Positions 7,575 through 53,633 of a stretch of DNA of 64,000 bases are shown piece by piece. The translations under genes were made by a program, and so were the position numbers. The notes below the pieces were generated by a model. The model searched no databases. It was not told where the DNA came from and was given only the letters and a program-made list of their open reading frames with translations. Position 1 is the stretch's first letter. Each line of letters begins with the position of its first letter. Origin of the DNA: Candidatus Parvarchaeota archaeon (GTDB lineage: Archaea > Nanobdellota > Nanobdellia > WJKC01); assembly GCA_017608505.1 (NCBI GenBank), contig JAFCFT010000003.1:234-64233 (forward strand), read 5' to 3'.

Positions 7575-8023
7575 ATAAAAAAGCAATTACTCCAGTCATT
7601 GCAGTTGTATTGTTGCTAATGATGACTGTGGCTGCAGCAGGAGCTGCTTTTTTTTGGATAACAACAATACAAAGCAGGATACAGGGGCAGATAGGAACGC
7701 AAACAACAGAATCAACAGGACAAGCAAGACAGTTTCAAATAATAAGTGCTGAATGCTCAAATGCGTCTCCAAACTTAATTAATGTAACAATCCAAAATGT
7801 TGGAAATTTGCAAATAGATGCTGGCACAACAGCAATTACAGTTACTGACAATTTAGGCCAAGTCATAGCAACAAACATATCGACAATGGAATCTGCATTA
7901 GAGAAAGGGGACATAACAACAATCAGATTTGCAACAGAAGCGCTTACAAGCGGAAAAACATACGGCTTAAAGATAACGCTTCCAGGCGGAGCAGAGCAGA
8001 CAACAGTATGCATTAGTAAGTAA
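7571..8023 (+). CDS. Archaeal type IV pilin-like protein 1 (class III signal peptide, Pilin_N-like)
   Basis: N-terminus (M)NKKAITPVIAVVLLLMMTVAAAGAAFFW: a basic leader followed by a hydrophobic helix. Several N-X-S/T sequons and two Cys. TTG start. Confidence 0.75.
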   Translation: MNKKAITPVIAVVLLLMMTVAAAGAAFFWITTIQSRIQGQIGTQTTESTGQARQFQIISAECSNASPNLINVTIQNVGNLQIDAGTTAITVTDNLGQVIATNISTMESALEKGDITTIRFATEALTSGKTYGLKITLPGGAEQTTVCISK

Positions 8024-9502: not shown

Positions 9503-12500
9503 ATGGTCAATATTTATAAAAGACTTTCAAAAAGGCTTAAAGAAGCAAAGGAGAAATTGCTGGAAGAAGAATTAAAAGCTCCTGAAAAGCCGGCTGCGCC
9601 TGAAATTAAAGAGCTTCCAAGACCTATCTCACTTAAAAAACCTCCTGAATTGATTGAGGCTCCTAAAGTTCCTGAGATTCCAAAAATTCCTAAAATAGAG
9701 CCTAAGAAAGTTGTTGCTAAAGCGCCTGAAGCTCCAAAATTAATAGTCCCCCCGCAGCAAGTGATAGTGCAAGCGCCTGTAGTCAAGCCAGAAATAGTTA
9801 AAGAGGCTGCGATGGAAGTTCCAGAAGGGCTTGAAACTGGAAGAGCATTTAAAATGAAATACAAGCCAATAAGCATGGAAATACCAGAAGAATTTACTGA
9901 AGCGGCTGGCAAAGGGTTGGAAGCAAAAAAAGAAGTATACATGAAAAAATTAAGAAAAATTGATGAAAAAGTGCCATTAATAACCTTAAAGACAAAAGGC
10001 AAAGAAGTAGTAGTCTCGTGGGCAAACATAAAATGGAATCCTGCATCAAGAAGTCTCATATATTATGTTTACGAACCGAAATTAAATGACAAATTAAGGA
10101 CAACGCTTGACGAAGCAAAAACCCTTCTAAGGCAAAAACTAGACATAGACTTTACTAAGATAAGAATTGAAAAAGCATACGAGTACTTAATGAGCAAATT
10201 TGATGCAGTGCTTAATGAAATGGGCGCAAAAATAACTCCTAAAGAAAAAATCATACTTAATTATTATGTCTTCAGGGATTTTATAGGGCTTGGAAAAATA
10301 GAGCCTTTGCTTCATGACAAAAATTTGGAAGATATTCACTGCGACGGCGCAGGAGTGCCGTTATTTGTAACGCACAGAAATCCATTGTATGGAGAAATGC
10401 AGACAAACATCATATTCAAGACAAAAGAAGAGCTTGACTCATTTGTTTTAAGGCTTGCGCAAAAATGCGGAAAAGCGTTAAGCATTGCAGAGCCTTTGCT
10501 TGACGGAGCCCTTCCAGACGGGTCCAGGGTGCAGATAACATATGGAACAGATATTGCAATGAGAGGCTCGAATTTTACAATTCGTAAATTCACTGAAAAG
10601 CCAATAACCCCAATTGATGAATTAAATTACGGCACAGCAAGCCCAGAAATCCTTGCTTATCTTTGGATGGCTGTGGAGTCAGGCCTTTCAATGCTTATTG
10701 CTGGGGCAACTGCTACTGGAAAAACGAGCTTCTTAAACGCTTTAAGCATGTTCATTAACCCTGAACTGAAAATAATAAGCATAGAAGACAGTGTTGCAGG
10801 AGACACGCCTTTTGTTTTTTTAAACAGCAACAAATACAGGCAGGAAACAATAGGGAATTATATAGATACTGTAATGAATAAACATGGATTTGAAAAACTA
10901 AGCAGCGGACACCACATATGCCCTAATTATGAGAATATCAAAGTACCCACAATAGATTTCAACAACAAACTTACATTCTTGCCAGTAAATGCCTTGATAA
11001 GGCACAAAGTAAACAAAAAAGGATACGAAATTATAACAAAAACAGGGAAAACAATTAAGGTAACCGAAGATCACTCACTATATATCCTGGGTCCAGATAT
11101 TGAAAAAATGAGTCCTAAAAGATTTGTTAAAGAAATTGCGCAGGGAAACAAACAAAAAGCGCAAATTAATGAAGATATTGCGTTTTTAACAGGGTTAACT
11201 GTAACTCACGGGGTGGTGGACAAAAATAAAAATGTGTATTATCCAAAAATCAAAAAATTAGAAAACATCTTGAATAAATTAGGATTTAAATATAAAATTA
11301 GAAAATACCATATAAGAATTTCAAGAAAAGAATTCTATGATTACTTAGTAAGTCTTGGCATAAACTTAAACTCAAAATGGATTAATGAAAGAACGCCTAA
11401 ATGGGTTGTGTCTTTAGAAGGCGCACACTTAAGAAATTTCATTCTTGGGTACAGACTAGGCAACAAAAAAAAGGTATATTATATAAAACCAAAATTATGC
11501 AAAGCAAAGGCGAGCAAGTTAAGAAAAGGCGATTGCATAATTTCTGCAAAAACGCTTGAAAAAGATTACAAAGGATTGGAGTGCATTAACTTAGACTTAA
11601 AGAACTTTGGCAAAAGAGCAAAAATAATAGACGGCAAAGTCAAAGTTGGATCATACGCTATGCCATGCAAAGTAAAACTTGATAAAGACCTGCTTGAATT
11701 TATTGGATTATGGATTGCTGACGGTTGTTATGATGAACGCGGCAAATATGTAATAATCAGCGCGCCAAAACCAGAAACTGAAAATGTGGTAAAAAGAATC
11801 TGTGAAAAATTCAAGTTTAAATATAAAAAGCATTCAGACGGTGTTTCCCTCAACATATATGGGAGCATATTTTATTATTTTTTGAAAAACGAGCTTAAAT
11901 TGACCCATTATGCGCATCATAAAACAATGCCTCAATGGGTAAATAAATTATCAAACAAACAGTTAGCAGCATTATTAAGAGGATATTTTGCAGGCGATAA
12001 TAATGACGGAAAATACGAAATGGGTTGTGCAAGCGTATCAAAGAAACTTATAGAAGATATCCAACACTTGTTGTTAAGATTTGGCATAAGATCAACTATA
12101 AGAGAAAAAAAGCAGATATATAATTTAAGTATATCAGAAATTAATAATATAAAAAAGCTAGAAAAAATAGGATTTATACGCAAAGACAGACTAAAAAGAT
12201 TTAAAGAGATAACAAGCAGAAATAAGCAAGATCATGACTGTTCAGATATAATAGACCTTCCAGAAAACTTTTTAATAGCCATATTTGATGAAGCTAAAGA
12301 TACATGGAAATCATTAAAACAGAGATATAAAAAGAAAAAAATTGGAAGAGCATTTCTTAAACAGATAGTAAAGTCTCTTAAAGGAGAAACAAAAGAGTTA
12401 TTGAAAAGCATAATAGACGCTGACTTGTACTTTGAGAAAATCAAAAAGATAAATAAGATTAGATTAAATGAATATGTATATGATTTCTCAGTACAACCTG

Positions 12501-14512
12501 TTCAAAGATTTTGCACTAAAAATGGAATCCTGTGTTCAAATACGCCAGAGCTTAGATTGCCTCACCCTAACTGGATTCCTGAAGTAGCAAGGGCAGGATT
12601 TGGCGTGAAAAGATATGGCGAAGTTACGATGTTTGATTTGCTTAAAAGCGCTTTAAGACAAAGACCTAACTACGTTATAGTAGGCGAAGTGCGTGGCAAA
12701 GAAGCATACGTCATGTTCCAAGGGATGGCATCAGTACTTGGATGCGAAAAAATTTTTGTAAGCGATACTGAAGGAAATCCAACAATAATGCCTATTAAAG
12801 AATTGGGCAAATACGCATTTAAGAATTGGAAAGCAGTCACATTAAATCCAGGACACGAAGCAAAATTACTGCCAGTAAAAGCATGGGCAAGGCATGGAAA
12901 AAGAACTAAAATGATAAAAATTGAAACACACACAGGAAGAGAAGTCATTGTAACGCCAGAACACTCTTTATTCACGTATGATAAAAAACAAGGAATATTT
13001 CCAATAGAAGCAAACAATTTAACGCAAGGGAGCATAATATTAGTGCCTTCGAAAATTCCTTGCAATTACAAAAACATTGAATATTTTGATTTAACAAATT
13101 TAAAAGGAATTAGAGTATTAGCGCCGGAATTAATTAAAAAAGCTGTCCAAAAAATTGGATTTAAAAAAGCTTGCGAGATTTGTTGCGTTAAGTCGATAAA
13201 TGATTATTACTCAAAAAATGCATGTTCAGCGCTTCACTCAGACAAATTCAAAAAATTAATGGATGCGTCAAAAATAGACTATTCTAATGAAGAATTTATG
13301 GTGCGCTTTGATAGAAAAAGTGAAACATTCCCAAATAAATTAAAGATAAGCAATGAATTGTTGCGTTTGATAGGATACTACTTAAGTGAAGGCACGCTTA
13401 ACACGGCTAATAAAAATAATTCAATTGCGTTATATAATTCTGATAAAAAAGTTCTTAGAGATATGAAACAATGCATTAAAAAAGTCACTGGAAAGACTCC
13501 TAAAGAAAGATTAACAAAAGGTTGGGGCAAGACGCTTGAACTAAGATTCAATCACAAAGTATTATACGAATTTTTAAAACAATTATGCGGTCTTGGAAGT
13601 TCAAATAAAAAAATTCCAGAATTTGTATTTGGATTAAGCAAAGAAAAAATAGGACAGGTGTTGGCAGGAATGTACGCAGGAGATAGCAATTTTAGTGCAA
13701 AAGCAATTACATATTACACTAAATCAAAAGAACTTGCAAATACTTTACTTTATGCCCTGCTTTGCTTAGAAATTGTTGGCAGAGTAAGATCTCACAAAGG
13801 AATCTATGAAATAAAAATATACAGAAGCGATTTCAGAAAAAAACTAAGCGAGTATGTTAAACCAGTAAATAAGAAATATGTATTCAAAAAAGCAAGATAT
13901 TTAAAAAACATAATAGGCGACGTTTACTTAGATAAAGTGAAGAATATTACTGAAATAAGACTAAAAAGCCCATTAAATGTTTATGATATATCAGTGCCGC
14001 CGACTGAAAATTTTGTAGGCGGATTTGGAGGAATAATGCTCCATAACACAGGCCATCCAAGCTTCGGCACCCTTCATGCAGACAGCGTAGCTACAGTCAT
14101 AGACAGACTGACTACAGAACCAATAAATCTTCCTAAAGCAATGCTTGAAAATCTTGATTTAATTGTATTCCTGATTTTAACAAAGAGAAAAGGCGAGTAC
14201 GTAAGAAGGGTCAACGAAATAGTAGAAATTTTAGGGTATGACCCTAAAACAAGAAACTTAATTACAAACAGAGCGTTTAGATGGGACCCTGAAGAAGACA
14301 AATTTGTTTTGCTTAAAAGCGTGCTTCTTGATAAAATAAGAGAAAAACTTGGATACACAATCGAGGAGCTAAAATTAGACATGCTTAGAAGAATCAAACT
14401 GTTAAAATGGCTTCAAAAACACAAAATCACGGATTACAAAGAAGTTGCCCGTTATTTCAAAATGTATTACACAAGTCCTGAAAAGGTCGATAAGCTTGTG
14501 AGGAGAGCTTAA
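9503..14512 (+). CDS. Type II/IV secretion (FlaI/PilB/TadA/KlbA-type) ATPase precursor containing two inteins
   Basis: Extein motifs: Walker A GATATGKTS, Asp box IISIED|TPELRL, Walker B RPNYVIVGEVRG, His box FQGMA|TGHPSFGTLHADS. 1669 aa in total; the predicted spliced product is 646 aa. Confidence 0.9.
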   Translation: MVNIYKRLSKRLKEAKEKLLEEELKAPEKPAAPEIKELPRPISLKKPPELIEAPKVPEIPKIPKIEPKKVVAKAPEAPKLIVPPQQVIVQAPVVKPEIVKEAAMEVPEGLETGRAFKMKYKPISMEIPEEFTEAAGKGLEAKKEVYMKKLRKIDEKVPLITLKTKGKEVVVSWANIKWNPASRSLIYYVYEPKLNDKLRTTLDEAKTLLRQKLDIDFTKIRIEKAYEYLMSKFDAVLNEMGAKITPKEKIILNYYVFRDFIGLGKIEPLLHDKNLEDIHCDGAGVPLFVTHRNPLYGEMQTNIIFKTKEELDSFVLRLAQKCGKALSIAEPLLDGALPDGSRVQITYGTDIAMRGSNFTIRKFTEKPITPIDELNYGTASPEILAYLWMAVESGLSMLIAGATATGKTSFLNALSMFINPELKIISIEDSVAGDTPFVFLNSNKYRQETIGNYIDTVMNKHGFEKLSSGHHICPNYENIKVPTIDFNNKLTFLPVNALIRHKVNKKGYEIITKTGKTIKVTEDHSLYILGPDIEKMSPKRFVKEIAQGNKQKAQINEDIAFLTGLTVTHGVVDKNKNVYYPKIKKLENILNKLGFKYKIRKYHIRISRKEFYDYLVSLGINLNSKWINERTPKWVVSLEGAHLRNFILGYRLGNKKKVYYIKPKLCKAKASKLRKGDCIISAKTLEKDYKGLECINLDLKNFGKRAKIIDGKVKVGSYAMPCKVKLDKDLLEFIGLWIADGCYDERGKYVIISAPKPETENVVKRICEKFKFKYKKHSDGVSLNIYGSIFYYFLKNELKLTHYAHHKTMPQWVNKLSNKQLAALLRGYFAGDNNDGKYEMGCASVSKKLIEDIQHLLLRFGIRSTIREKKQIYNLSISEINNIKKLEKIGFIRKDRLKRFKEITSRNKQDHDCSDIIDLPENFLIAIFDEAKDTWKSLKQRYKKKKIGRAFLKQIVKSLKGETKELLKSIIDADLYFEKIKKINKIRLNEYVYDFSVQPVQRFCTKNGILCSNTPELRLPHPNWIPEVARAGFGVKRYGEVTMFDLLKSALRQRPNYVIVGEVRGKEAYVMFQGMASVLGCEKIFVSDTEGNPTIMPIKELGKYAFKNWKAVTLNPGHEAKLLPVKAWARHGKRTKMIKIETHTGREVIVTPEHSLFTYDKKQGIFPIEANNLTQGSIILVPSKIPCNYKNIEYFDLTNLKGIRVLAPELIKKAVQKIGFKKACEICCVKSINDYYSKNACSALHSDKFKKLMDASKIDYSNEEFMVRFDRKSETFPNKLKISNELLRLIGYYLSEGTLNTANKNNSIALYNSDKKVLRDMKQCIKKVTGKTPKERLTKGWGKTLELRFNHKVLYEFLKQLCGLGSSNKKIPEFVFGLSKEKIGQVLAGMYAGDSNFSAKAITYYTKSKELANTLLYALLCLEIVGRVRSHKGIYEIKIYRSDFRKKLSEYVKPVNKKYVFKKARYLKNIIGDVYLDKVKNITEIRLKSPLNVYDISVPPTENFVGGFGGIMLHNTGHPSFGTLHADSVATVIDRLTTEPINLPKAMLENLDLIVFLILTKRKGEYVRRVNEIVEILGYDPKTRNLITNRAFRWDPEEDKFVLLKSVLLDKIREKLGYTIEELKLDMLRRIKLLKWLQKHKITDYKEVARYFKMYYTSPEKVDKLVRRA
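10790..12541 (+). mobile_element. Intein 1 (584 aa) with LAGLIDADG homing endonuclease, inserted in the Asp box
   Basis: Block A SVAGDTPFVF (Ser1), block B KVTEDHSLYI. LAGLIDADG motifs LLEFIGLWIADGCYDE and LAALLRGYFAGDNNDG. C-terminal YVYDFSV...NGILCSN|T (Thr+1). Confidence 0.85.
12731..14047 (+). mobile_element. Intein 2 (439 aa) with LAGLIDADG homing endonuclease, inserted in the His box
   Basis: Block A SVLGCEKIFV (Ser1), block B VIVTPEHSLFT. Motifs LLRLIGYYLSEGTLN and IGQVLAGMYAGDSNF. C-terminal VYDISVP...GGIMLHN|T. Confidence 0.85.
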
Positions 14513-17252: not shown

Positions 17253-18253
17253 GCTTTGTAAAAACTTTGGAAGCAATTCTTGCAGCAATAATAATGATGT
17301 CAATGTACGGCATAATTAATGATTTCATAACAAAGCAGGTAGGAGCTTATCAGCGCGACCCGACATTTTTAATGAATGATTTTATTGAGATGCTTGCAAA
17401 AAACAATTTGATAAATGATGCAATAAATAATTATGAGTATTCAGAAATGGACGCGCTTTTTTACGAATATTTCTTAAAATCCATATATTATTACTTTGAA
17501 CCAAGATATTATGAACGTATCAAAGTCAAAAGCGAGATTAACAAAACATATCCAAACATTAGCTTTGTATATCACTTTCCATTTGGCATTGATGAAAACT
17601 CAGTAAGGGTGACTGGTAACGAATACGAATTGCCAACAAAAGCGCTTTTTAATTGGTACGCAACACCAATTGTCTTCTTAGAAGATATCAACAATTCATA
17701 TGTAGAAGTTAATATAACAATTGAAGCGTCTGGAATAGATAATAAGACATTAATGTATTTTGTAAATGACAAACGTTCAATATTGGATGTTCATAAATGG
17801 ACAAAAGTAGACCAAGACATGTACAATGCAACGCTTGTATTGTTTGTGCCAGAAGTGAAAAAGAATGTCTTAACATATGTCTATGCTGCGCAAAATGACA
17901 GCATGATTAATTTCACATATCCTTCTCTTAACAAAAATTTAGATATCCAATATTACCAGCTAAACACTTTTAAAACTACAACCGGTCTTGTTGTGTTCAC
18001 GCCTGAAAATGTAAGCTCAACAAGAGATGACACATACTATATTGAATACACCCTTTACTCTCATCAAGATGATAATTATGCAGACATAAAAATCGTAAAC
18101 AATACAGGAATTACAATAATCCCTGAACTTGATTATGTAAAGCACGGAAGCAGCCCTGCATATGCGACAACAAAAGGAGAATACTCTGTAAAAAGACTTT
18201 TCCCTAAAAAAGGAGGATTTGTTGAATTAACTGTTTATGGAGGATACTCATGA
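17237..18253 (+). CDS. Pilin-like protein (338 aa)
   Basis: MVDRLGFVKTLEAILAAIIMMSMYGII has a G|F...E pattern followed by a hydrophobic helix. Many sequons. Overlaps both neighbours. Confidence 0.5.
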   Translation: MVDRLGFVKTLEAILAAIIMMSMYGIINDFITKQVGAYQRDPTFLMNDFIEMLAKNNLINDAINNYEYSEMDALFYEYFLKSIYYYFEPRYYERIKVKSEINKTYPNISFVYHFPFGIDENSVRVTGNEYELPTKALFNWYATPIVFLEDINNSYVEVNITIEASGIDNKTLMYFVNDKRSILDVHKWTKVDQDMYNATLVLFVPEVKKNVLTYVYAAQNDSMINFTYPSLNKNLDIQYYQLNTFKTTTGLVVFTPENVSSTRDDTYYIEYTLYSHQDDNYADIKIVNNTGITIIPELDYVKHGSSPAYATTKGEYSVKRLFPKKGGFVELTVYGGYS

Positions 18254-21066
18254 AAAAAGCGCAGTTTTTCATTGGAACAATAGTGCTTGTTGCATTATCA
18301 ACATCAATAATTGCAGGCAGCTTGACAATACCAGAACAATTAAAATACAACAGCTTTGAAACTGATTTAAATGACTACAATAATATAATATTTGTTAAGA
18401 ATTCAATTAAGGACTTGTTTAACAATTATTTTACAGACTACTGGATGCTTCCTTATGACTACAGAACAACAATCAAAGTATACAACAATTTTACATTAAA
18501 AGGAAATCTGATAAAAGTTCAATTAGACTTGCCCAATGACATTCATGAAGAGTCGTTAATATTAATTGACAGCGATGGAGATATAGTCCCCTTTGGCATT
18601 GAATGGACAGATGTATCAGAAAAACAAGGCGCATTATACTTTCAGTCGTCTCTTAATTCAATGGATAACGAAAACTATTATTTATACTACAATGATGTTT
18701 CAAACTCAAATAAAGATAATAAATACAAAGAGCAAATGGTAATATACAACAGCTCTTCCGAATACATTGACATTAGAACAGGACTTTACAGTCTAAGACT
18801 AAACAAAAGTCTTGGGGGCGCACTTACAAATCTTAACATTTCTGGAAAAGGGAATGTGCTAAACATTTTAGAAGCAAGGCTTAACTGCTCAGGAACAATA
18901 TATAGCTTGTCTAACAGCAGTAATCAAGAATACGCTATTAATGATTACAATTACTTTTTAGAAGTCGCAATCACAGGCTCAAGATTCACAAACACAAGCT
19001 ACAAAATAAAAGAATATTTCTTTCCAGATAGAATAATAATTAAAGACTTTTTAACTGTTGGAGCAGATTCGCCATGCAGCTCTTGGGAATTTTTTGTTGA
19101 TGCAAAAAAAGATGATCTGCCAAATTACATAGACTCAAAAGAAAATTCTTATGCGCCTGTGCCTGTCATGGACCAAAACGGGCTTGACATGGGGGACTGG
19201 GCAGAATTCTATGGTGACAATTATGCCCTTGGCGTGTTAATAAGCAATAGTTCTCCATACAATTATCTTTCAAGCACAAGCAGCGAGAACATACTTTTGC
19301 TTAGAGCGCACAACGCGTCTCTTTTAAGCAAAGGAGCTTATAACAACACAATTACTATTATTCCAATGCATAATGACTCAATTAAAAATAATCATTTGAA
19401 TTATGAAGTTAATGCGCTCACTTCAAACGATGACTTATTTAATGAAAAACAAGAATTGCTTAATATCCTTAAAAGATACTTTACGCAAGCAAACACATAC
19501 GTAACAGTTACTGTTGACAACGCTCGCTCTATAGAACAGTACAATAACAGATCTAATTGGTACAGCAACTTAACGATGCGCTCCAGCATCAGAGCATTTG
19601 GACCTAATTTCAAGACGCCCCTTGTCATATCTGCAAGATTTCTTAAAGGTTTTGAACCAAGCTCGGTCGTACTAGTTGGCAGTGAAGGACCGCTAATTTC
19701 TCAACTTTCAACAGACAATTATATGAACAATTCATTTAGCCCTCTTCTTAACAACTCTTTAGTAAATAACACGATTCTTGTCCTTAACTTGGATGGGCGC
19801 GACTTTAATGTGAGTATTAACAAACAAGTTGCTGGCCCATTAAGTGCTTATGCATATTATCCGAATGGGACTTTAATCAATTATTATGACATTAACACAG
19901 ATTTTTACAACATAGAATTTAAAGATATAAAGCAGTCTGGATTTTACAACATATCATTTAATGGCACTGATGCTTTATTCTTTGCAAACTCCTCGCTTCC
20001 AAAAATGGTCATAGGACTGCCAGCACAAGTCCATGCTGAGGAATTAATTTTGCCTGTAAATGAGACTACAAATAATATTTCCATTTCAATAGAAGCATTT
20101 AATAACAATGCTAGACTCATTGACTTCTTAAATAACACAGTAGCATCAGACAACGGAAGCACACTAAGCCTTAATGCTGATGTCGTAAAATGTCTTGACG
20201 GATGCTATTATAAACTGTTGCTTGAAAATGCAAGCCCTGCTTTTATTAGCTCATCACTTAATTATGCTTGCGCAAATGCGCTGTCTTGCATTAATCCTGA
20301 TGAACCAAGAGTAGACATAGTAAGTTATGGCCTAACAAGCGAGTCAGGCGCGGATATGCACTATTACTACAATGTGGATACATACTCAACAAATTACAGC
20401 AAAAATACAGACTTAAAGTACAGCTTAAAAGACTATGAAGTCAACAACTCTTATTTTAGCTTTGATTTAGACGACTTAAAATTCATTGTTAACAACACTG
20501 ACTGGAGTCTTGGCTGGACAACCTGCGACCCAGAATGCACAAATGGATTTAACAAAATCAAATTTTTAGAAACTGGTCCAGCACGCGTTGTGTTGTGGGC
20601 AAACGCAAGCCCTTATACAAAATACTATTTTTTCTTTTATTACAATGCTTCATTATTTGATGTTTTTATAGACTCAAGTCGCGAAGTGACTTTTGGACCA
20701 GACTTTAAAGTCGGGGGCAGCGACACTTTGTATTATGATTACTTGGGGTCTGGCTCATTAAGCGAAGGCAATACAGACAATTACATTAACAGAGTGCTGC
20801 TTAAAGGAGTAAACAATTACATTAGAAGAAAAAGCTTAAACAATTCATTTTCTGTTGTCTTTAAGCCGCGCGATTTATCATACAACAACTCTATCTTAGT
20901 CAATGACTCCACAGTGCGCTTTAAAGTTTACAAACCAGGGTTTTTTAGATTTTTAATTGATGTTGACCCAAATAACTATTTATATGACTTAAAGCAAAGA
21001 GAATGGATGTTCTCATTGCATTACAACATAACAGGCCTTACATACACTTTAAGCGAACATTCATAA
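18250..21066 (+). CDS. Large pilin-like/secreted Asn-Tyr-Ser-rich protein (938 aa), putative pilus-associated adhesin
   Basis: MKKAQFFIGTIVLVALSTSIIAGS N-terminus. More than 30 N-X-S/T sequons by eye. ATGA overlap with the upstream gene. Last gene of the co-directional locus. Confidence 0.6.
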   Translation: MKKAQFFIGTIVLVALSTSIIAGSLTIPEQLKYNSFETDLNDYNNIIFVKNSIKDLFNNYFTDYWMLPYDYRTTIKVYNNFTLKGNLIKVQLDLPNDIHEESLILIDSDGDIVPFGIEWTDVSEKQGALYFQSSLNSMDNENYYLYYNDVSNSNKDNKYKEQMVIYNSSSEYIDIRTGLYSLRLNKSLGGALTNLNISGKGNVLNILEARLNCSGTIYSLSNSSNQEYAINDYNYFLEVAITGSRFTNTSYKIKEYFFPDRIIIKDFLTVGADSPCSSWEFFVDAKKDDLPNYIDSKENSYAPVPVMDQNGLDMGDWAEFYGDNYALGVLISNSSPYNYLSSTSSENILLLRAHNASLLSKGAYNNTITIIPMHNDSIKNNHLNYEVNALTSNDDLFNEKQELLNILKRYFTQANTYVTVTVDNARSIEQYNNRSNWYSNLTMRSSIRAFGPNFKTPLVISARFLKGFEPSSVVLVGSEGPLISQLSTDNYMNNSFSPLLNNSLVNNTILVLNLDGRDFNVSINKQVAGPLSAYAYYPNGTLINYYDINTDFYNIEFKDIKQSGFYNISFNGTDALFFANSSLPKMVIGLPAQVHAEELILPVNETTNNISISIEAFNNNARLIDFLNNTVASDNGSTLSLNADVVKCLDGCYYKLLLENASPAFISSSLNYACANALSCINPDEPRVDIVSYGLTSESGADMHYYYNVDTYSTNYSKNTDLKYSLKDYEVNNSYFSFDLDDLKFIVNNTDWSLGWTTCDPECTNGFNKIKFLETGPARVVLWANASPYTKYYFFFYYNASLFDVFIDSSREVTFGPDFKVGGSDTLYYDYLGSGSLSEGNTDNYINRVLLKGVNNYIRRKSLNNSFSVVFKPRDLSYNNSILVNDSTVRFKVYKPGFFRFLIDVDPNNYLYDLKQREWMFSLHYNITGLTYTLSEHS

Positions 21067-23250: not shown

Positions 23251-26200
23251 ATGGATAAATACGAACCAAAGAAAATTGAAGAAAAGATAATAAAATATTG
23301 GAAAAAAAACAAAATATATGCAAAAGTTAAGAATGCAAGCAAAAAATGCAAGAAAAAATTCTCATTTATTGACGGCCCTCCATACACTACTGGCACAATT
23401 CACTTAGGCCACTCGTGGAACAAGGTCATGAAAGACATGATACTTAGATACAAACGAATGAACGATTACAATGTCAATGACCAGCCAGGATATGACATGC
23501 ACGGCTTGCCTATAGAAGTGATGGTGCAAAAGGAATTCAAAATAAAAACTACAGACGACATATTAAAAATTGGGATTGGCAAGTTTACAGAAATGTGCAA
23601 AAAATATGCTTTAGAAAAACTTTACAAGATGAATGAAGAGTTTGCAAGACTGGGCGTATGGATGGACTGGGAAAACCCGTACATGACAATAAAAAACACA
23701 TACATTGAAGGCAGTTGGTGGGCTTTAAAAAAGGCTTGGGAAAATAAACTGCTTTACAAGGGGAAAAAGGTCATTAGCTGGTGCCAAATATGCGGCACAG
23801 CGCTTGCAAAACACGAGCTTGAATACAAAAACATAAAAGAAAACTCCATATACGTAAAATTAAAAATTAAAGACTCCAACGAGCACTTAATAATCTGGAC
23901 AACAACGCCATGGACGCTTCCTTTTAACATGGCAGTGATGGTGAATCCTGAATTAGACTATGTAAAAGCAAAAGTTGATGATGAAATATGGATTATTAGC
24001 AAAGCGCTGGCAGGCCCTTTTATTCAGGGCGTAATGAACAAAGAATTCACAATAATTGAGGAATTCAAAGGAGAAAGCTTGCTCGGCCTAAAGTACGAAC
24101 ATCCTTTACTTGATAAAATGCCTAAATTAAAAGAGTATTCTAAAAAGAAAGGAGTTCACACAGTAGTGCTAAGCAAAGAATATGTTGATACAAGCGCAGG
24201 GTCTGGATTGGTGCACTGCGCTCCAGGATGCGGTCCAGAAGACTATGAAGTTGGAAAAAAGTACAAACTGCCTGTTTTTAATGACATAGATGAGCAAGGG
24301 TTCTTTGGAGAAGAATCTGGCGCACTTAAAGGCTTGAGGGCAAAAGAAGATGATGAAAAAATTATCAAGTTGCTTGGCGACAGCGTATTAACGCGCGTAA
24401 TGATAGAGCATGAGTACCCTCACTGCTGGCGTTCAAAAAATCCAGTGATATTTAGAGCATCTAATCAATGGTTTATTAAAACAAGCAAGTTAAAAAATAA
24501 GATGCGAGCCCAAAACAAAAAAGTTTATTGGGTCCCAGACTGGGCAGGCAGCGCATGGTTTGACTCGTGGCTTAAAGAACTTGATGACTGGTGCATCAGC
24601 AGACAGCGTTTTTGGGGAATCCCACTTCCAATATGGGTTTGCGAGAAATGCGGCAATGAAAAAATAATAGGTTCATGGGATGAGTTAAAAAAGATAAGCG
24701 GACTGAAAAAAGAAATTGATTTTCATAGGCCTCACATTGACAAAGTAACATTTAAGTGTAACAAATGCAAAGGGGTGATGAAAAGGATTCCCGACATTCT
24801 CGACGTATGGCTTGATTCTGGCTCTGCTCCTTGGAGCAGCCTTGATTTCCCGAGAACTAATAAGAAATTTGAAGGGTCTTTCCCAATGGACTTCATTATT
24901 GAAGGAAAAGACCAAATCAGAGGCTGGTTTAACTCGCTTATATGCTTAAGCAACGCCAGCTGGGGCATTGCGCCTTATAAGAAAATATATATGCACGGCT
25001 TTGTTAATGACAGTGAAGGCAGAAAAATGAGCAAAAGTCTTGGAAACGTAATCAGTCCCATGGAAATGGTTGACAAATTTGGGGCAGACATACTTAGATT
25101 TTATCAAATAGGCGCAACAAGCCCTGGCGTAGACCAAAAATTCAACATTAAAGACATGAAAGACACCCAAAAAGCGTTAAATGTCATATACAATACTCAC
25201 TTGTATGCTTTAAAGAACTTTAAAATCGAACGCTACAAGCATAAAGAGCCAGCAATCAATTCTCCAGAAGATAAATGGATTGTTGGGCGCTTAAACAAAC
25301 TAATTAAAGAAGTAACTGATGCAATGGAATCATACAACGTATATTTGGTCCCGCGCCTTGTCAAGCAATTTCTTGTTGAAGATTTCAGCAGAGAATACTT
25401 AAAACTTGTAAAAAACAGGATTGTGCTTGGAAGCAAAGAAGAAAAATTAAACACGCTTGCAGTCATTGACAAAATACTAAGAGAAAGTCTGAAATTGCTT
25501 TCAATCATCACTCCATTTATTGCTGAAGAAATGTATCTAAACTTAAGAAGTTATTTGGGGCTTAAAGAAGAAAGCATATTCATGCTTAAATGGCCTAAAG
25601 CAGAACCTTACAATGAAAAGTTCATCAAAGGATTCGAACTTGCAAGAAATGTGTCGCAAGCAATCCTTCACTTAAGGGAAAAAGCAAAGATAAACAAAAG
25701 ATGGCCTCTTAAAACAGCATATATAGTGACAGAAGAAGAAAAGCGCATAAAGGACTTTTTAAATGTAATAAAAGAACAAACAAACATTAAAGAATTAAAG
25801 TTTGAAAACCCCCGTCTTGATTTTGACGTCAAGCCAGATTACAAGATGCTTAATCAGTTATTCCCAGGTGTTGTTGCGCAAATCATAAGCAGATTAACGC
25901 AATTAAGCCAGGAACTCGTAAAAAGAAAACTTGTCGAGTCAAAGTGCGTCAAATTAACAATTGATGCAAAAGAATATGCAATACCAGAAAATGCGTTTGT
26001 AATTTCTGAAAAACTGCCTCAAAATATAATTGGCGAGCAAGTAGGCGACAAGCTAAGAGTTTATATTGACACAGAATTAAATGACGAATTAATAAGCGAA
26101 GGATTTACTCGCGAAGTGATAAGAAGAATTCAAGAAACGCGCAAAGCCTTTGGACTAAAAAGAAATCAAAAAATAAGAGCAATCATTGAATGCGACAGCG

Positions 26201-26343
26201 AACTGACCCAAATGCTAAAAGAGCACATAGATTGGGTAACTAAGCAGACTAATTCAGAAGTTTCGTTTTCAAAAACAGTTGGAGACGCAACAGAATACAA
26301 AATAAAAGACAAAGAGATTAAAATCAATATAAAGACTATTTAA
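23251..26343 (+). CDS. ileS: Isoleucyl-tRNA synthetase
   Basis: HIGH-type HLGH, KMSKS, a CP1 editing region, Zn-type CxxC pairs, 1030 aa. Confidence 0.95.
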
Positions 26344-39646: not shown

Positions 39647-39756
39647 GCCCAGGTAGCTCAGTAGGTAGAGCGTCCGACTGTTACCCAACGCTGAACAGAA
39701 CATTACGGCGTTGGATTGATATCGGATGGTCGCAGGTTCGAGTCCTGTCCTGGGCG
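39647..39756 (+). tRNA. tRNA-Asn(GUU) with a 37-nt canonical (37/38) intron
   Basis: Manual cloverleaf: acceptor GCCCAGG/CCTGGGC, D arm GCTC..GAGC, anticodon stem TCCGA/TCGGA, loop CT-GTT-A. Intron 39684-39720 has an internal CCAACGC/GCGTTGG helix. T arm GCAGG-TTCGAGT-CCTGT. No encoded CCA. Confidence 0.85.
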
Positions 39757-43009: not shown

Positions 43010-44365
43010 CTATTCAAGCATTCTTTTTTCGTATTTTTTTAAATAATTGATAGATGTGTTTACGTCTGCAAAGAGTTTTTCCACTTCTTCTACATGCTCT
43101 TTTTTAACAGCGCTGTTGCCTGCAACAATGCTTGCAGGAGCAAGGAGATGCACAGCATGCCTTAAGCTGGTCTTGTCGCCAATGCTTGTTAAATAATCCA
43201 AAGCTTCTGGAGAGAGTTCAATGCCTTCAACTTTGCTTCTTATTTTTAATATTTCCTTAATTTCGCTAGCAGAGTAATCTGAAGTATTGATTATTAATAG
43301 GCGGTCTATTAAGTCAAGGGGCATGCCGTGAGGCGCTTTGATGCTTGTGCCTCTGATTTCGCTCATTCCTCTGTTTGTCGCGAAAATTATAATAGGTGCA
43401 AGTTCGCCTTCCATAGCCCTGTTAAGAAAAGCAAAAGATTCTATGTCAAGCATGCTGCATTCGTCTATAAAAAGAACACCAGGAATTATTTCTGCTTTTC
43501 CGCTTTCAACCCAAGATTTAACTGTGCTGTTTATTTCAGACCTTAGTTCGCTGTCAACTTCTTTGCTTGACCCGCCAAATAAAACGCTGAAAAAGTCGCT
43601 CCTTGCAGCGCGCGCATTTAATACATCCATTTGATGAAGAGTTAAAGTGTAAACAAATTCTTTGTTTTTTAAAACAGTTCCAGAAGGCACAGGCAATAAT
43701 TCTTCAGCGCTTAAGTCTAGTTTTTTATCTTTAGCATATTTGCTGGATTTTCCTAATTTTACTACTTTGTTGCCGTCTGCATCGATTTGAATAACATCGC
43801 CTTCGCTTACGCCTTGCTGAAGAAATTGAAGTGCAAAAGCCTGGTCCATGCTTAAGCTCTTGCATTCTTCAGTAGTGCAAAGCTTAACAGTCGCGCTGAC
43901 TGGAATCTGCTGATAAGGATTGTAAGGATGCGCTTCCTTTTCTATGTCAAGCTTTTCAACAACGCCCTCATAGATTTTTCTCATCTCTTTAATTCTTACG
44001 CCAATAGCCTTTCTTAGAGCTTGGGTAAGAAACTCGGTTTTTTTAATCTCAGCGCTGTAAATTTCACTTGCTGTTATCGGAACAAATGGCACGTCTCTGC
44101 CTAATTCTTTTGCCATGCCAAGGGCAACTGCAGTTTTGCCAGTTCCTGGAGGGCCCGCAATAAGCACTGCTCTTCCTGCAAATTTGCCGCTTTTTACAAG
44201 CTCTACAACTATGCCCGCTGCCTCTCTTGCTTTTTCTTGCCCGACTAAGCCGTCTGCTTTCTTTTTGGCTTTAAGACCTTTAAGACCTAATCCTGTGATG
44301 TGAGAATGGGCGCTTACGCGCTCCCAGTCCTTTATAGACTCGGGCAGCTCCTTAATTTCTGCCAT
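43010..44365 (-). CDS. RuvB-like / TIP49 AAA+ ATPase
   Basis: ERVSAHSHITGLGL, GQEKAREAAG, Walker [12 protein letters not shown], inserted OB-like domain II, Walker B VLFIDECSML. Confidence 0.9.
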   Translation of the reverse strand: MAEIKELPESIKDWERVSAHSHITGLGLKGLKAKKKADGLVGQEKAREAAGIVVELVKSGKFAGRAVLIAGPPGTGKTAVALGMAKELGRDVPFVPITASEIYSAEIKKTEFLTQALRKAIGVRIKEMRKIYEGVVEKLDIEKEAHPYNPYQQIPVSATVKLCTTEECKSLSMDQAFALQFLQQGVSEGDVIQIDADGNKVVKLGKSSKYAKDKKLDLSAEELLPVPSGTVLKNKEFVYTLTLHQMDVLNARAARSDFFSVLFGGSSKEVDSELRSEINSTVKSWVESGKAEIIPGVLFIDECSMLDIESFAFLNRAMEGELAPIIIFATNRGMSEIRGTSIKAPHGMPLDLIDRLLIINTSDYSASEIKEILKIRSKVEGIELSPEALDYLTSIGDKTSLRHAVHLLAPASIVAGNSAVKKEHVEEVEKLFADVNTSINYLKKYEKRMLE

Positions 44366-51608: not shown

Positions 51609-52726
51609 ATAAAAAATTAATAGTTGTTGGGACTTTGCTGTGCGCATCAATACTCTTTTACATAGCTCCAGATCACCCAACTCATTTGCATAACGGATGG
51701 GTGTTTAACAAGATGCTAAAAACAGGGCAGTTCCATATATTTGACCCTTACACTGGTGGAGGCCATCAATTTTTGTGGAGCTATGGCGTGCCAGCGAACT
51801 TCATTGTGGCTGTCCTTTGGTTTGCATTTTCAGAATTCTCGCTAAACATAGCTGAAGCAGCAATATTTGCTGTATTTTTATTCTATTCAACAAAGATAAT
51901 AAAAGACGAAAAGAAGCTGGTTGTGTGGTGGCTCTTAACATATTTTATCCTTCCATTCACAGGAGCATACGTGTATTTATTGTCATTTACATTGTTTTTC
52001 ATTGGTTTTACAAAAAAGGGAAAACTTAAATCAGCGCTTCAGCTTCTTGCCGGCATTAATCATGTTTACTTTTCAATGATAAACCTGCTGTTTGTCTCAA
52101 GAAAAAGAAAGAATTTTTTCAATGCTCAAATAATAATATTGGCAATTCAACTAAGCATGATACTAATCTTAAGGCTTGGCGGAGGATATGCGGGGCTTAT
52201 GATTTTTGGCATTTTCTGGTTTAGACTGCTTGCAGTAGCATATCCATATGTATTCACTGAATGGATTAAGCTTAAGCCAAGCCTTATTAAAGTTAGAAGA
52301 CCTGGCAAATTAAACAAAGCATACAAAATAGGCGCAACAACAGGAATTGCAATATGTATGATAGTTTTCCCAATGATGTCAAACACAGAATTTACTGAGT
52401 ATAACTTTGATAAATTACCTATACATCCAGACAGCAATGGAACTGCCAGACTTGTTGATATAAACATAATTGGGGTCTATCAGCTTCCAAAACAAGGCCT
52501 TGTGTTATCTACATCGCAGTACTTTCATGAGCAAGAAAATTTGATTTTCAACAAGACAAAATATCTAGATATGCTTAAGAAATACAATATAAGCTATGTC
52601 ATTTACTGCGCAAACTGCATAATATCAAACATGAGCCAAGAAAAAAAGTTCTTAGAAGAAGAATTTAAAGCAATATACAGCGACAACGAATACATGGTGT
52701 TTGACACTAGAAACAGAAAGTCTTAA
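51605..52726 (+). CDS. Polytopic membrane protein with C-terminal soluble domain (paralog B)
   Basis: Paralog of 50565-51608, with the same conserved blocks. TTG start overlapping the upstream stop. Confidence 0.5.
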   Translation: MNKKLIVVGTLLCASILFYIAPDHPTHLHNGWVFNKMLKTGQFHIFDPYTGGGHQFLWSYGVPANFIVAVLWFAFSEFSLNIAEAAIFAVFLFYSTKIIKDEKKLVVWWLLTYFILPFTGAYVYLLSFTLFFIGFTKKGKLKSALQLLAGINHVYFSMINLLFVSRKRKNFFNAQIIILAIQLSMILILRLGGGYAGLMIFGIFWFRLLAVAYPYVFTEWIKLKPSLIKVRRPGKLNKAYKIGATTGIAICMIVFPMMSNTEFTEYNFDKLPIHPDSNGTARLVDINIIGVYQLPKQGLVLSTSQYFHEQENLIFNKTKYLDMLKKYNISYVIYCANCIISNMSQEKKFLEEEFKAIYSDNEYMVFDTRNRKS

Positions 52727-52757
52727 AAAATTACTGCTTTTTTCAAATATTCAAAGT

Positions 52758-52866
52758 GGGCCTGTAGCTCAGCTTGGTAGAGCGCTGGTCTTATATGATC
52801 CCGCTCTAGGACAACCAGAGGTCCCGAGTTCAAAACCCGCAAGGGATGAGTATCTCGGCAGGCCCA
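52758..52866 (+). tRNA. tRNA-Ile(UAU) with two introns (37/38 and T-loop)
   Basis: Manual fold: acceptor GGGCCTG/CAGGCCC, D arm GCTC-AGCTTGGTA-GAGC, anticodon stem CTGGT/ACCAG, loop CT-TAT-A (anticodon 52792-52794). Intron 1 is about 52796-52812 (17 nt). T stem CCGAG/CTCGG is interrupted in the loop by about 18 nt (52835-52852) containing a CCC-GCAA-GGG hairpin. Mature length 74 nt. Confidence 0.7.
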
Positions 52867-52880
52867 CTAAAATATTGCTG

Positions 52881-53633
52881 ATGCGTATGAATTACAATGA
52901 AAAAATATATGCAAGAGTGTTTAGCGAAGAAGAAGAATTCTACGATTCTTTAATGGAATACAAATACAAGACAATAATAGACATGATTGGCGCATCAAAG
53001 AAAATCCTTGATATTGGATGCGGCAACGGAAAACTTGGAGAACTGATAAAAAACGAATTAAAAGATGTTGAAGTTTATGGAGTAGACATCTCAAGCAATG
53101 CGCTAAAAGCTGCAAAAAAAAGAGGCTTAATAACAGTTAAGCAAAATGTGGACGGAAAAAAATTAAAATTTAAAGATAACACCTTTGATCTTGTCATTTG
53201 CGGCGATATAATAGAGCACGTGTACAACAATTTTTTTCTTTTAAAAGAAATTAAAAGAATCTTAAAAAAAGGTGGCAGATTAATAGTGTCTGTTCCAAAT
53301 GTCAACGCATGGTATAACAGATTCTTATCGCTAATTGGAAAAATGCCATGTTTTCTTGATTCAACAGAAGAAGATATTCAAGCAACTCCTTTTTTTAAAA
53401 ATGCTTTAGGCCACATAAGGGCGTTTAATAAAGACGCAATTATCAAACTGCTTTCAGAAGCAGGATTTAAAATTAAAAAAATAAAAGGAATTGGATTAAA
53501 TTTCAAAGTGAAGCACAATGCAATCGAACTTAAAGGATACAAAATATTTGCAACAATGCTTACAAAAGCAGATTCGCTCCTAAGCAAAAAAGCCTCAATA
53601 GCATCAACAATACTTGTGGAGGCAGAAAAATGA
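52881..53633 (+). CDS. Class I SAM-dependent methyltransferase
   Basis: ILDIGCGNGKLG (motif I), VYGVDIS, DLVICGDIIEHV, GGRLIVSVPN. ATG at 52881; the track start 52701 reads through the tRNA-Ile gene. Confidence 0.8.
   Translation: MRMNYNEKIYARVFSEEEEFYDSLMEYKYKTIIDMIGASKKILDIGCGNGKLGELIKNELKDVEVYGVDISSNALKAAKKRGLITVKQNVDGKKLKFKDNTFDLVICGDIIEHVYNNFFLLKEIKRILKKGGRLIVSVPNVNAWYNRFLSLIGKMPCFLDSTEEDIQATPFFKNALGHIRAFNKDAIIKLLSEAGFKIKKIKGIGLNFKVKHNAIELKGYKIFATMLTKADSLLSKKASIASTILVEAEK

What the first reader, a model, noticed from the sequence alone, without database searches (positions are those of the whole stretch)
52758..52866. tRNA-Ile with a UAU anticodon and two introns, one in the T-loop
My manual fold requires removing 17 nt after position 37 and about 18 nt within the T-loop (between TTCAAA and (T)CTCGG, position about 59/60). 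This yields a 74-nt cloverleaf with anticodon TAT. Most Archaea decode AUA with a CAU tRNA modified to agmatidine by TiaS. A genomic UAU tRNA-Ile is known only from a few lineages such as Nanoarchaeum and Korarchaeum. It would predict that TiaS is absent. Non-canonical T-loop introns imply a broad-specificity splicing endonuclease.
Basis: partly seen in the sequence, partly recalled or inferred. Interest (0 to 1): 0.65.

Follow-up and report, generated by a model that had tools for sequence, protein, structure and literature searches.

The report
Two-intron isoleucine tRNA (UAU) gene
This is a real but hard-to-detect archaeal tRNA gene that reads the isoleucine codon AUA directly and is interrupted by two short introns; the same kind of gene has been described in related tiny archaea since 2011.

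Summary
Window 52758-52866 (+) is a 109-nt tRNA gene. Removing 17 nt after position 37 and 18 nt at T-loop position 59/60 leaves a 74-nt cloverleaf, which ARAGORN calls tRNA-Ile(UAU).

- **Splice motifs:** both junctions sit in bulge-helix-bulge (BHB) motifs. The 37/38 motif is strict 3-4-3. The 59/60 motif has one extra unpaired A.
- **Relatives:** three genes (L002, L018, L016) have introns at the same two sites, and their T-loop introns are 15 to 156 nt. L002 and L018 exons are identical to the window's apart from one D-loop base. L016 exons carry compensatory stem changes. On seven spliced sequences every stem position pairs, and six pairs change on both sides.
- **Expression and need:** the gene has the same TATA-like box as the window's three ordinary tRNA genes. 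AUA is the commonest Ile codon here.
- **Lineage:** the closest genome is labelled Candidatus Parvarchaeota (DPANN).
- **Prior knowledge:** Fujishima et al. 2011 reported tRNA-Ile(UAU) with a 37/38 intron, 59/60 introns in other tRNAs, and no TiaS or tRNA-Ile(CAU) in the DPANN ARMAN lineages.

I therefore class it as a new member of a known kind. TiaS absence and the endonuclease type could not be tested beyond the window.

The parts
52723..52730 (+). TATA-like box TTAAAAAA at -35..-28 from the mature 5' end (putative archaeal promoter)
   Evidence: A similar A/T box lies at about -36..-25 upstream of the other three tRNA genes of the window, and at -34..-27 in L002, L018 and L016. Promoter function is inferred, not shown.
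52758..52795 (+). Exon 1: acceptor 5' strand, D-arm, anticodon stem 5' strand and loop positions 32-37
   Evidence: Identical in L018 and one D-loop difference in L002.
52792..52794 (+). Anticodon TAT (UAU), positions 34-36
   Evidence: ARAGORN call on the spliced sequence. Fixed by the 3-4-3 BHB geometry and conserved in all seven archaeal-type homologues.
52796..52812 (+). Intron 1, 17 nt, canonical position 37/38
   Evidence: Strict hBHBh' motif. Central helix C32-G, U33-G, U34-A, A35-U; 3-nt bulges UA|U and AC|A; 2-bp inner helix. The same geometry occurs in all seven homologues, with U33-G changing to U33-A.
52813..52834 (+). Exon 2: position 38, anticodon stem 3' strand, variable loop, T-stem 5' strand, T-loop positions 54-59
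52835..52852 (+). Intron 2, 18 nt, non-canonical position 59/60 in the T-loop
   Evidence: Central helix U54-G, U55-A, C56-G, A57-U; bulges AA|A and UA|U; 3-bp inner helix closed by a GCAA loop; one extra unpaired A opposite the 5' bulge. The unconstrained minimum-energy fold reproduces this motif. Relatives carry 15-, 50- and 156-nt inserts at the same site.
52853..52866 (+). Exon 3: position 60, T-stem 3' strand, acceptor 3' strand, discriminator A73 (no encoded CCA)
   Evidence: Compensatory T-stem and acceptor changes in L016, L013, L014 and L019.
23251..26343 (+). Isoleucyl-tRNA synthetase, the presumed charging enzyme (start codon uncertain)
   Evidence: TIGR00392 ileS, 886 bits against a cut-off of 621; Pfam tRNA-synt_1 and Anticodon_1. 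Charging of this tRNA is inferred.
52881..53633 (+). Methyltransferase gene downstream. The 310-aa ORF called from 52701 runs over the tRNA and is probably an over-extension.
   Evidence: Public gene calls list the 310-aa product. The methyltransferase domains start at residues 14-43 of the 250-aa form that begins at ATG 52881.

Best explanation
This is a functional archaeal gene for tRNA-Ile with a genomically encoded UAU anticodon, the decoder of the AUA codon, and it is interrupted by two endonuclease-spliced introns.

Proposed pathway:
1. Transcription starts from a TATA-type promoter about 30 nt upstream.
2. The roughly 109-nt precursor folds so that each intron presents a BHB motif, one built on the anticodon stem (37/38) and one on the T-stem (59/60).
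3. The archaeal splicing endonuclease (EndA) cuts in the four bulges.
4. An RtcB-type ligase joins the three exons into a 74-nt tRNA.
5. CCA is added.
6. IleRS, encoded in the same window, charges the tRNA, which then reads AUA, the most used Ile codon here.

Shown here: the gene anatomy, the BHB geometry, conservation and covariation, the promoter-like box and the codon demand. Inferred: splicing, ligation, charging, any modification of U34, and replacement of the TiaS/agmatidine system. The last point rests on analogy with the ARMAN lineages.
For: - Cloverleaf and anticodon after removing the two inserts.
- BHB at 37/38 is strict in 7 of 7 homologues. At 59/60 it is strict in L018, has one extra unpaired nt in the window and L016, and is relaxed in L002.
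- The unconstrained fold of the window precursor finds the T-arm BHB by itself.
- L002 and L018 have the window's exons (one D-loop difference in L002) but T-loop introns of 50 and 15 nt against 18 nt in the window. L016 has a 156-nt T-loop intron and compensatory changes in the acceptor, anticodon and T stems.
- On the spliced alignment 100% of cells pair, 6 pairs change on both sides, and 0 of 500 shuffles reach the covariation score.
- A UbiA gene lies upstream of the tRNA gene in the window, L002 and L018.
- The TATA-like box is shared with the window's other tRNA genes.
- AUA occurs at 44 per 1000 codons, which is 47% of Ile codons.
- IleRS is present in the window.
- Precedent: ARMAN-2 pre-tRNA-Ile(UAU) with a 37/38 intron and pre-tRNA-Cys with a 59/60 intron are both cleaved in vitro by ARMAN-2 EndA. 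The ARMAN lineages lack TiaS and tRNA-Ile(CAU) (PMC3239211).
Against: - There are no expression or splicing data.
- The cloverleaf with two BHB motifs is 9.7 kcal/mol less stable than the minimum-energy fold (-36.5 against -46.2). In that fold intron 1 pairs with the D-arm and anticodon-stem strand.
- The window's T-loop motif is not a perfect 3-4-3.
- No T-run terminator follows the gene.
- EndA, RtcB, TiaS and tRNA-Ile(CAU) could not be looked for outside the 64 kb.
- The search pattern fixed parts of the D-arm and anticodon arm, so conservation there is partly by construction.
Confidence: 0.88

Rival explanations
1. The gene is genuine but redundant. The organism also keeps TiaS and tRNA-Ile(CAU), so the UAU tRNA is an extra AUA decoder rather than the replacement of the agmatidine system.
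For: TiaS absence was not tested beyond the window. AUA is so frequent that two decoders would be conceivable.
Against: Every archaeon so far reported with tRNA-Ile(UAU) lacks TiaS: the ARMAN lineages (PMC3239211), and the general statement in PMC3575796. The nearest genome carries the phylum label Parvarchaeota.
Confidence: 0.1
2. The locus is a decaying tRNA pseudogene. The two inserts are junk insertions and the apparent ORF over them (52701-53633) is the real feature.
For: Standard tRNA finders miss it, and public gene calls place a 310-aa ORF over it.
Against: Exons are conserved while introns diverge. Compensatory changes keep every stem paired, both inserts keep the BHB geometry, and a promoter-like box is present. 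The methyltransferase domain starts downstream of the tRNA.
Confidence: 0.02
3. Different splice sites are used, so the mature anticodon is not UAU.
For: ARAGORN accepts many arbitrary deletions in the anticodon region with other anticodons (275 of 453), so a cloverleaf call alone does not fix the junctions.
Against: With the covarying 5-bp anticodon stem fixed, only junctions at 37/38 or 38/39 give a 7-nt loop with U33 and a purine at position 37, and both give UAU. The two 3-nt bulges separated by 4 bp pick 37/38 in all seven homologues, although the 3' ends of their introns differ.
Confidence: 0.02

Closest known systems
Pre-tRNA-Ile(UAU) of ARMAN-2 (Candidatus Micrarchaeum acidiphilum) and the tRNA-Ile(UAU) genes of ARMAN-4/-5 (Fujishima et al. 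2011, PMC3239211)
   Same: A DPANN archaeon with a genomic UAU anticodon for AUA. In ARMAN-2 the intron sits at 37/38 in a strict hBHBh' motif.
   Different: The ARMAN-2 gene has one intron of 25 nt. The window gene has a 17-nt intron plus a second intron in the T-loop. Cleavage and TiaS loss were shown for ARMAN and are not shown here.
ARMAN-2 pre-tRNA-Cys(GCA) with a 59/60 intron, and pre-tRNA-Pro(GGG) with 53/54 and 59/60 introns (PMC3239211)
   Same: An intron at T-loop position 59/60 built on the T-stem, and more than one intron in a single tRNA gene.
   Different: Different isoacceptors. The tRNA-Cys motif is a relaxed hBH type, whereas the window's motif is nearly strict.
tRNA-Ile(UAU) of Korarchaeum cryptofilum and Nanoarchaeum equitans (PMC6000648, PMC3575796)
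   Same: An archaeal genomic UAU anticodon. The K. cryptofilum gene also carries an intron.
   Different: Other phyla. No T-loop intron was reported in the passages read.
[quoted passage not shown]
   Same: The same isoacceptor, with a canonical intron plus a T-arm intron.
   Different: A eukaryote with three introns and a different splicing enzyme complex.
Yeast tRNA-Ile(UAU), whose intron is needed for pseudouridine 34 and 36 formation by Pus1 and blocks ncm5U34 (PMC4090602, PMC11408192)
   Same: A UAU anticodon base-paired to a 37/38 intron in the precursor.
   Different: Whether the archaeal intron has any role in modification is unknown. This is only a lead.

Membership tests
Canonical tRNA (cloverleaf) | 7-bp acceptor, 4-bp D-stem, 5-bp anticodon stem with a 7-nt loop (U33, purine 37), 5-bp T-stem with a UUCRANN loop, and a discriminator base | tested here: met
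   ARAGORN fold of the spliced sequence. T-loop TTCAAAT, U33, A37, A73. 100% pairing across seven homologues with six double changes.
Canonical tRNA (cloverleaf) | Reaches the Rfam RF00005 gathering score | tested here: not met
   The unspliced gene scores 24 bits against 29, because of the T-loop insert. The spliced sequence could not be submitted to that tool.
tRNA-Ile(UAU), AUA decoder | Anticodon UAU in the mature tRNA | tested here: met
   This is a genomic prediction only.
tRNA-Ile(UAU), AUA decoder | Aminoacylated with isoleucine by IleRS | not testable with these tools
   IleRS is encoded in the window. A73, A35, U36 and A37 fit what I recall of Ile identity elements.
Archaeal BHB intron (EndA substrate) | Two 3-nt bulges separated by a 4-bp helix, flanked by helices (hBHBh'), at 37/38 | tested here: met
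   Strict in the window and in six homologues.
Archaeal BHB intron (EndA substrate) | Strict hBHBh' at 59/60 | tested here: not met
   The window has one extra unpaired A opposite the 5' bulge (a 3x1 loop). L018 is strict. L002 has an A.A mismatch or a shifted pair. The motif meets the relaxed-BHB definition.
Archaeal BHB intron (EndA substrate) | Actually cleaved by EndA and ligated | not testable with these tools
   No EndA or RtcB domain was found in the window. The precedent is the ARMAN-2 in vitro assay.
TiaS-free AUA decoding system (ARMAN, Nanoarchaeum, Korarchaeum type) | No tiaS gene and no Ile-type tRNA(CAU) in the genome | not testable with these tools
   Only 64 kb were available and contain neither.

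The most novel reading that the evidence does not exclude
In Archaea, as in eukaryotes, a genomically encoded UAU anticodon may come obligatorily with a 37/38 intron that base-pairs to the anticodon. That intron would gate or direct modification of U34/U36, for example by allowing pseudouridylation or blocking xm5U-type modification, so that AUA is read without misreading AUG.

The basis is a small count. All seven archaeal-type UAU genes found with a pattern that allowed 0-30 nt of intron carry the intron, with an invariant pairing of C32-A35. The ARMAN-2 and K. cryptofilum genes do too. In five of seven genes the intron is also more complementary to exon positions 20-32 than shuffled versions are.
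Probability: 0.15. Interest if true: 0.6.

Novelty: new member of a known kind. Interest (0 to 1): 0.3.

Why it matters
The main value is practical. This essential AUA decoder is invisible to default tRNA finders, and gene callers cover it with a spurious ORF extension. DPANN genome bins will therefore look as if they lack an AUA decoder and carry a wrong protein start.

It adds members to the short list of archaea that read AUA with a genomic UAU anticodon. It also shows a T-loop intron whose length changes tenfold (15 to 156 nt) between close relatives while the splice site and BHB ends stay fixed.

It does not change the current picture of AUA decoding or tRNA splicing. The recurring link between UAU and a canonical intron is the one thread that could lead further.

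Tried and rejected
- **Brute-force deletions scored with ARAGORN.** ARAGORN accepted 275 of 453 anticodon-region deletions with many different anticodons, so its acceptance does not discriminate splice sites. I relied on BHB geometry and covariation instead.
- **Viral-contig scan for further orthologues.** No matches.
- **Look-ups of window-edge proteins to reach sequence beyond the window and look for TiaS or EndA.** Nothing was on record.
- **Whole-window permissive Rfam scan for more split tRNAs.** Nothing new.
- **Weak snoR4a-like hit at 52655-52752 (-) (24 bits against 50).** By eye it has no C or D boxes and it overlaps a coding region, so I treated it as chance.
- **Box C/D guide inside the introns.** The TGA in the T-loop introns is forced by pairing to UUCA, and I saw no C box. 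Rejected.
- **Alternative hairpin of intron 1 with exon positions 20-32.** The excess stability is modest in five of seven genes and absent in L016 and L014. I kept it as an unexplained side observation and not as part of the mechanism.

Full report
**What is there.** Window 52758-52866 (+) reads GGGCCTGTAGCTCAGCTTGGTAGAGCGCTGGTCTTATA / tgatcccgctctaggac / AACCAGAGGTCCCGAGTTCAAA / acccgcaagggatgagta / TCTCGGCAGGCCCA. Removing the two lower-case stretches (52796-52812, 17 nt; 52835-52852, 18 nt) leaves 74 nt. ARAGORN folds this as a regular cloverleaf and calls it tRNA-Ile(tat). With only the T-loop insert removed, ARAGORN finds the 17-nt anticodon-loop intron by itself. On the raw sequence ARAGORN in default mode finds nothing. 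Rfam's tRNA model stays below threshold (24 bits against 29) and matches only the 5' two-thirds. Public gene calls place a 310-aa ORF over the locus.

**Splice-site geometry.** At 37/38 the precursor can form a strict bulge-helix-bulge (BHB) motif:
- central helix C32-G, U33-G, U34-A, A35-U;
- 3-nt bulges UA|U and AC|A;
- a 2-bp inner helix.

At 59/60 the motif is:
- central helix U54-G, U55-A, C56-G, A57-U;
- bulges AA|A and UA|U;
- a 3-bp inner helix closed by a GCAA loop;
- one extra unpaired A opposite the 5' bulge.

The unconstrained minimum-energy fold of the 109-mer reproduces the T-arm motif. With the anticodon stem fixed, only junctions at 37/38 or 38/39 give a 7-nt loop with U33 and a purine at position 37, and both give UAU. 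By sequence alone the T-loop intron could also sit at 58/59, which gives the same product. The full cloverleaf with two BHB motifs has -36.5 kcal/mol against -46.2 for the minimum-energy fold. This is a caveat and not a refutation, because tertiary contacts and proteins are not modelled.

**Relatives.** One genome scan found a single hit, L002. It comes from a 727-kb contig of a genome labelled Candidatus Parvarchaeota archaeon CSMAG_2747, which belongs to DPANN. One metagenome scan gave 19 loci.

| Locus | Exons compared with the window | 37/38 intron | 59/60 intron |
|---|---|---|---|
| window | - | 17 nt | 18 nt |
| L018 | identical | 18 nt | 15 nt |
| L002 | one D-loop difference | 18 nt | 50 nt |
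| L016 | compensatory changes in acceptor, anticodon and T stems | 27 nt | 156 nt |
| L013 | compensatory stem changes | 26 nt | none |
| L014 | compensatory stem changes | 27 nt | none |
| L019 | compensatory stem changes | 18 nt | none |

- The 37/38 BHB is strict in all seven. The 59/60 BHB is strict in L018 and relaxed in L002.
- On the spliced alignment all 126 stem cells pair and six pairs change on both sides, three of them in the T-stem. No shuffle reaches the covariation score, and slid registers pair in only 27-46% of cells.
- The acceptor and T-arm were not part of the search pattern, so that support is independent of how the loci were found.
- A UbiA gene lies upstream of the tRNA gene in the window, L002 and L018. 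The L002 Topo VI-A protein is 88% identical to the window's.
- The remaining 14 matches are intronless, have unrelated acceptor stems and look bacterial, organellar or viral. I did not examine them further.

**Context and function.**
- The window is archaeal. It encodes a thermosome, MCM, Topo VI A and B, RFC, TBP, fibrillarin/Nop5 and TIP49, and its GC content is about 35%.
- A TTAAAAAA box lies at -35..-28. The window's tRNA-Asn, tRNA-Glu and tRNA-Gln genes and the orthologues have a similar box at the same distance.
- AUA is the commonest Ile codon: 334 of 704 Ile codons, or 44 per 1000 codons. An AUA decoder is therefore indispensable.
- IleRS is encoded at 23251-26343.
- The window's tRNA-Asn(GTT) gene also has a 37-nt intron, with a U.U mismatch in its central BHB helix.
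- No ORF of 110 aa or more in the window has an EndA or TiaS domain.

**Mechanism.** Transcription, EndA cleavage at four bulge sites, RtcB-type ligation of three exons, CCA addition, charging by IleRS and reading of AUA are all inferred from the anatomy and from established archaeal tRNA biology. None of these steps is shown here.

**Comparison with what is known.**
- A survey of 167 archaeal genomes found tRNA-Ile(UAU) only in K. cryptofilum, where it has an intron, and in N. equitans (PMC6000648).
- Fujishima et al. 2011 had already reported that ARMAN-2, -4 and -5 carry tRNA-Ile(UAU) and lack both tRNA-Ile(CAU) and TiaS.
- The same paper showed that ARMAN-2 pre-tRNA-Ile(UAU) has a 25-nt 37/38 intron in a strict BHB, that ARMAN-2 tRNA-Cys and tRNA-Pro have 59/60 introns, and that ARMAN-2 EndA cuts the tRNA-Ile(UAU) 37/38 and tRNA-Cys 59/60 introns in vitro (PMC3239211).
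- DPANN EndAs with an extra loop correlate with more disrupted tRNA genes (PMC5829648).

The window gene combines two known features in one tRNA, within a superphylum where both are documented. I class it as a new member of a known kind.

**What remains open.** TiaS absence, the EndA type and any modification of U34 are untested. Two side observations may be worth a survey:
- Every archaeal-type UAU gene seen here and in the two papers carries the 37/38 intron. In eukaryotes the equivalent intron controls anticodon modification (PMC4090602, PMC11408192).
- Intron 1 is complementary to exon positions 20-32 beyond what the BHB requires in five of seven genes.

Noticed in passing
window 52701-53633 (+): The 310-aa ORF, also present in public gene calls, starts inside the upstream gene's end and runs across the whole tRNA gene. 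The methyltransferase domains begin only after ATG 52881, so the first 60 residues are probably an annotation artefact caused by the undetected tRNA.
   Followed up: partly
window 52777-52808 (+), and the same region of L002, L018, L019, L013: Nucleotides 2-13 of intron 1 are complementary to exon positions 20-32 (D-stem 3' strand and anticodon-stem 5' strand). This gives an alternative hairpin that dominates the minimum-energy fold. It is more stable than intron-shuffled controls in five of seven homologues (fraction of shuffles at least as stable 0.006-0.047) but not in L016 or L014. The meaning is unknown.
   Followed up: partly
window 39647-39756 (+): tRNA-Asn(GTT) with a 37-nt intron at 37/38. 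Its central BHB helix has a U33.U mismatch and its inner helix is 9 bp long, so it is a relaxed motif in the same organism.
   Followed up: partly
L016 about 1027-1182 (T-loop intron): The T-loop intron at the same 59/60 site is 156 nt long and folds into several stable hairpins. In close relatives the intron at this site is 15, 18 or 50 nt. Whether the long intron carries a small RNA was not examined.
   Followed up: no
L019 about 7870-7965 (-): The tRNA-Ile(UAU) gene is followed with no spacer by a tRNA-Asp(GTC) gene. The discriminator A is directly followed by G1 of the next tRNA.
   Followed up: no
window 9503-14512 (+): A 1669-aa type II/IV secretion (T2SSE) ATPase ORF contains intein splicing and LAGLIDADG homing-endonuclease domains, apparently more than one intein. 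It sits next to pilin or archaellin-like genes and T2SSF genes.
   Followed up: no
window 43010-44365 (-): A full-length TIP49 (RuvB-like, Pontin/Reptin-type) ATPase homologue lies in a genome whose nearest relative is labelled DPANN.
   Followed up: no
window 18250-21066 (+): A 938-aa ORF with no Pfam match, in the cluster downstream of the T2SSE and T2SSF secretion genes.
   Followed up: no
L003-L012, L015, L017, L020, L021: Fourteen intronless tRNA(UAU) genes with unrelated acceptor stems lie on contigs of 25-67% GC. They are presumably bacterial, organellar or viral. Some sit in tRNA arrays (L005, L009, L007, L008).
   Followed up: no
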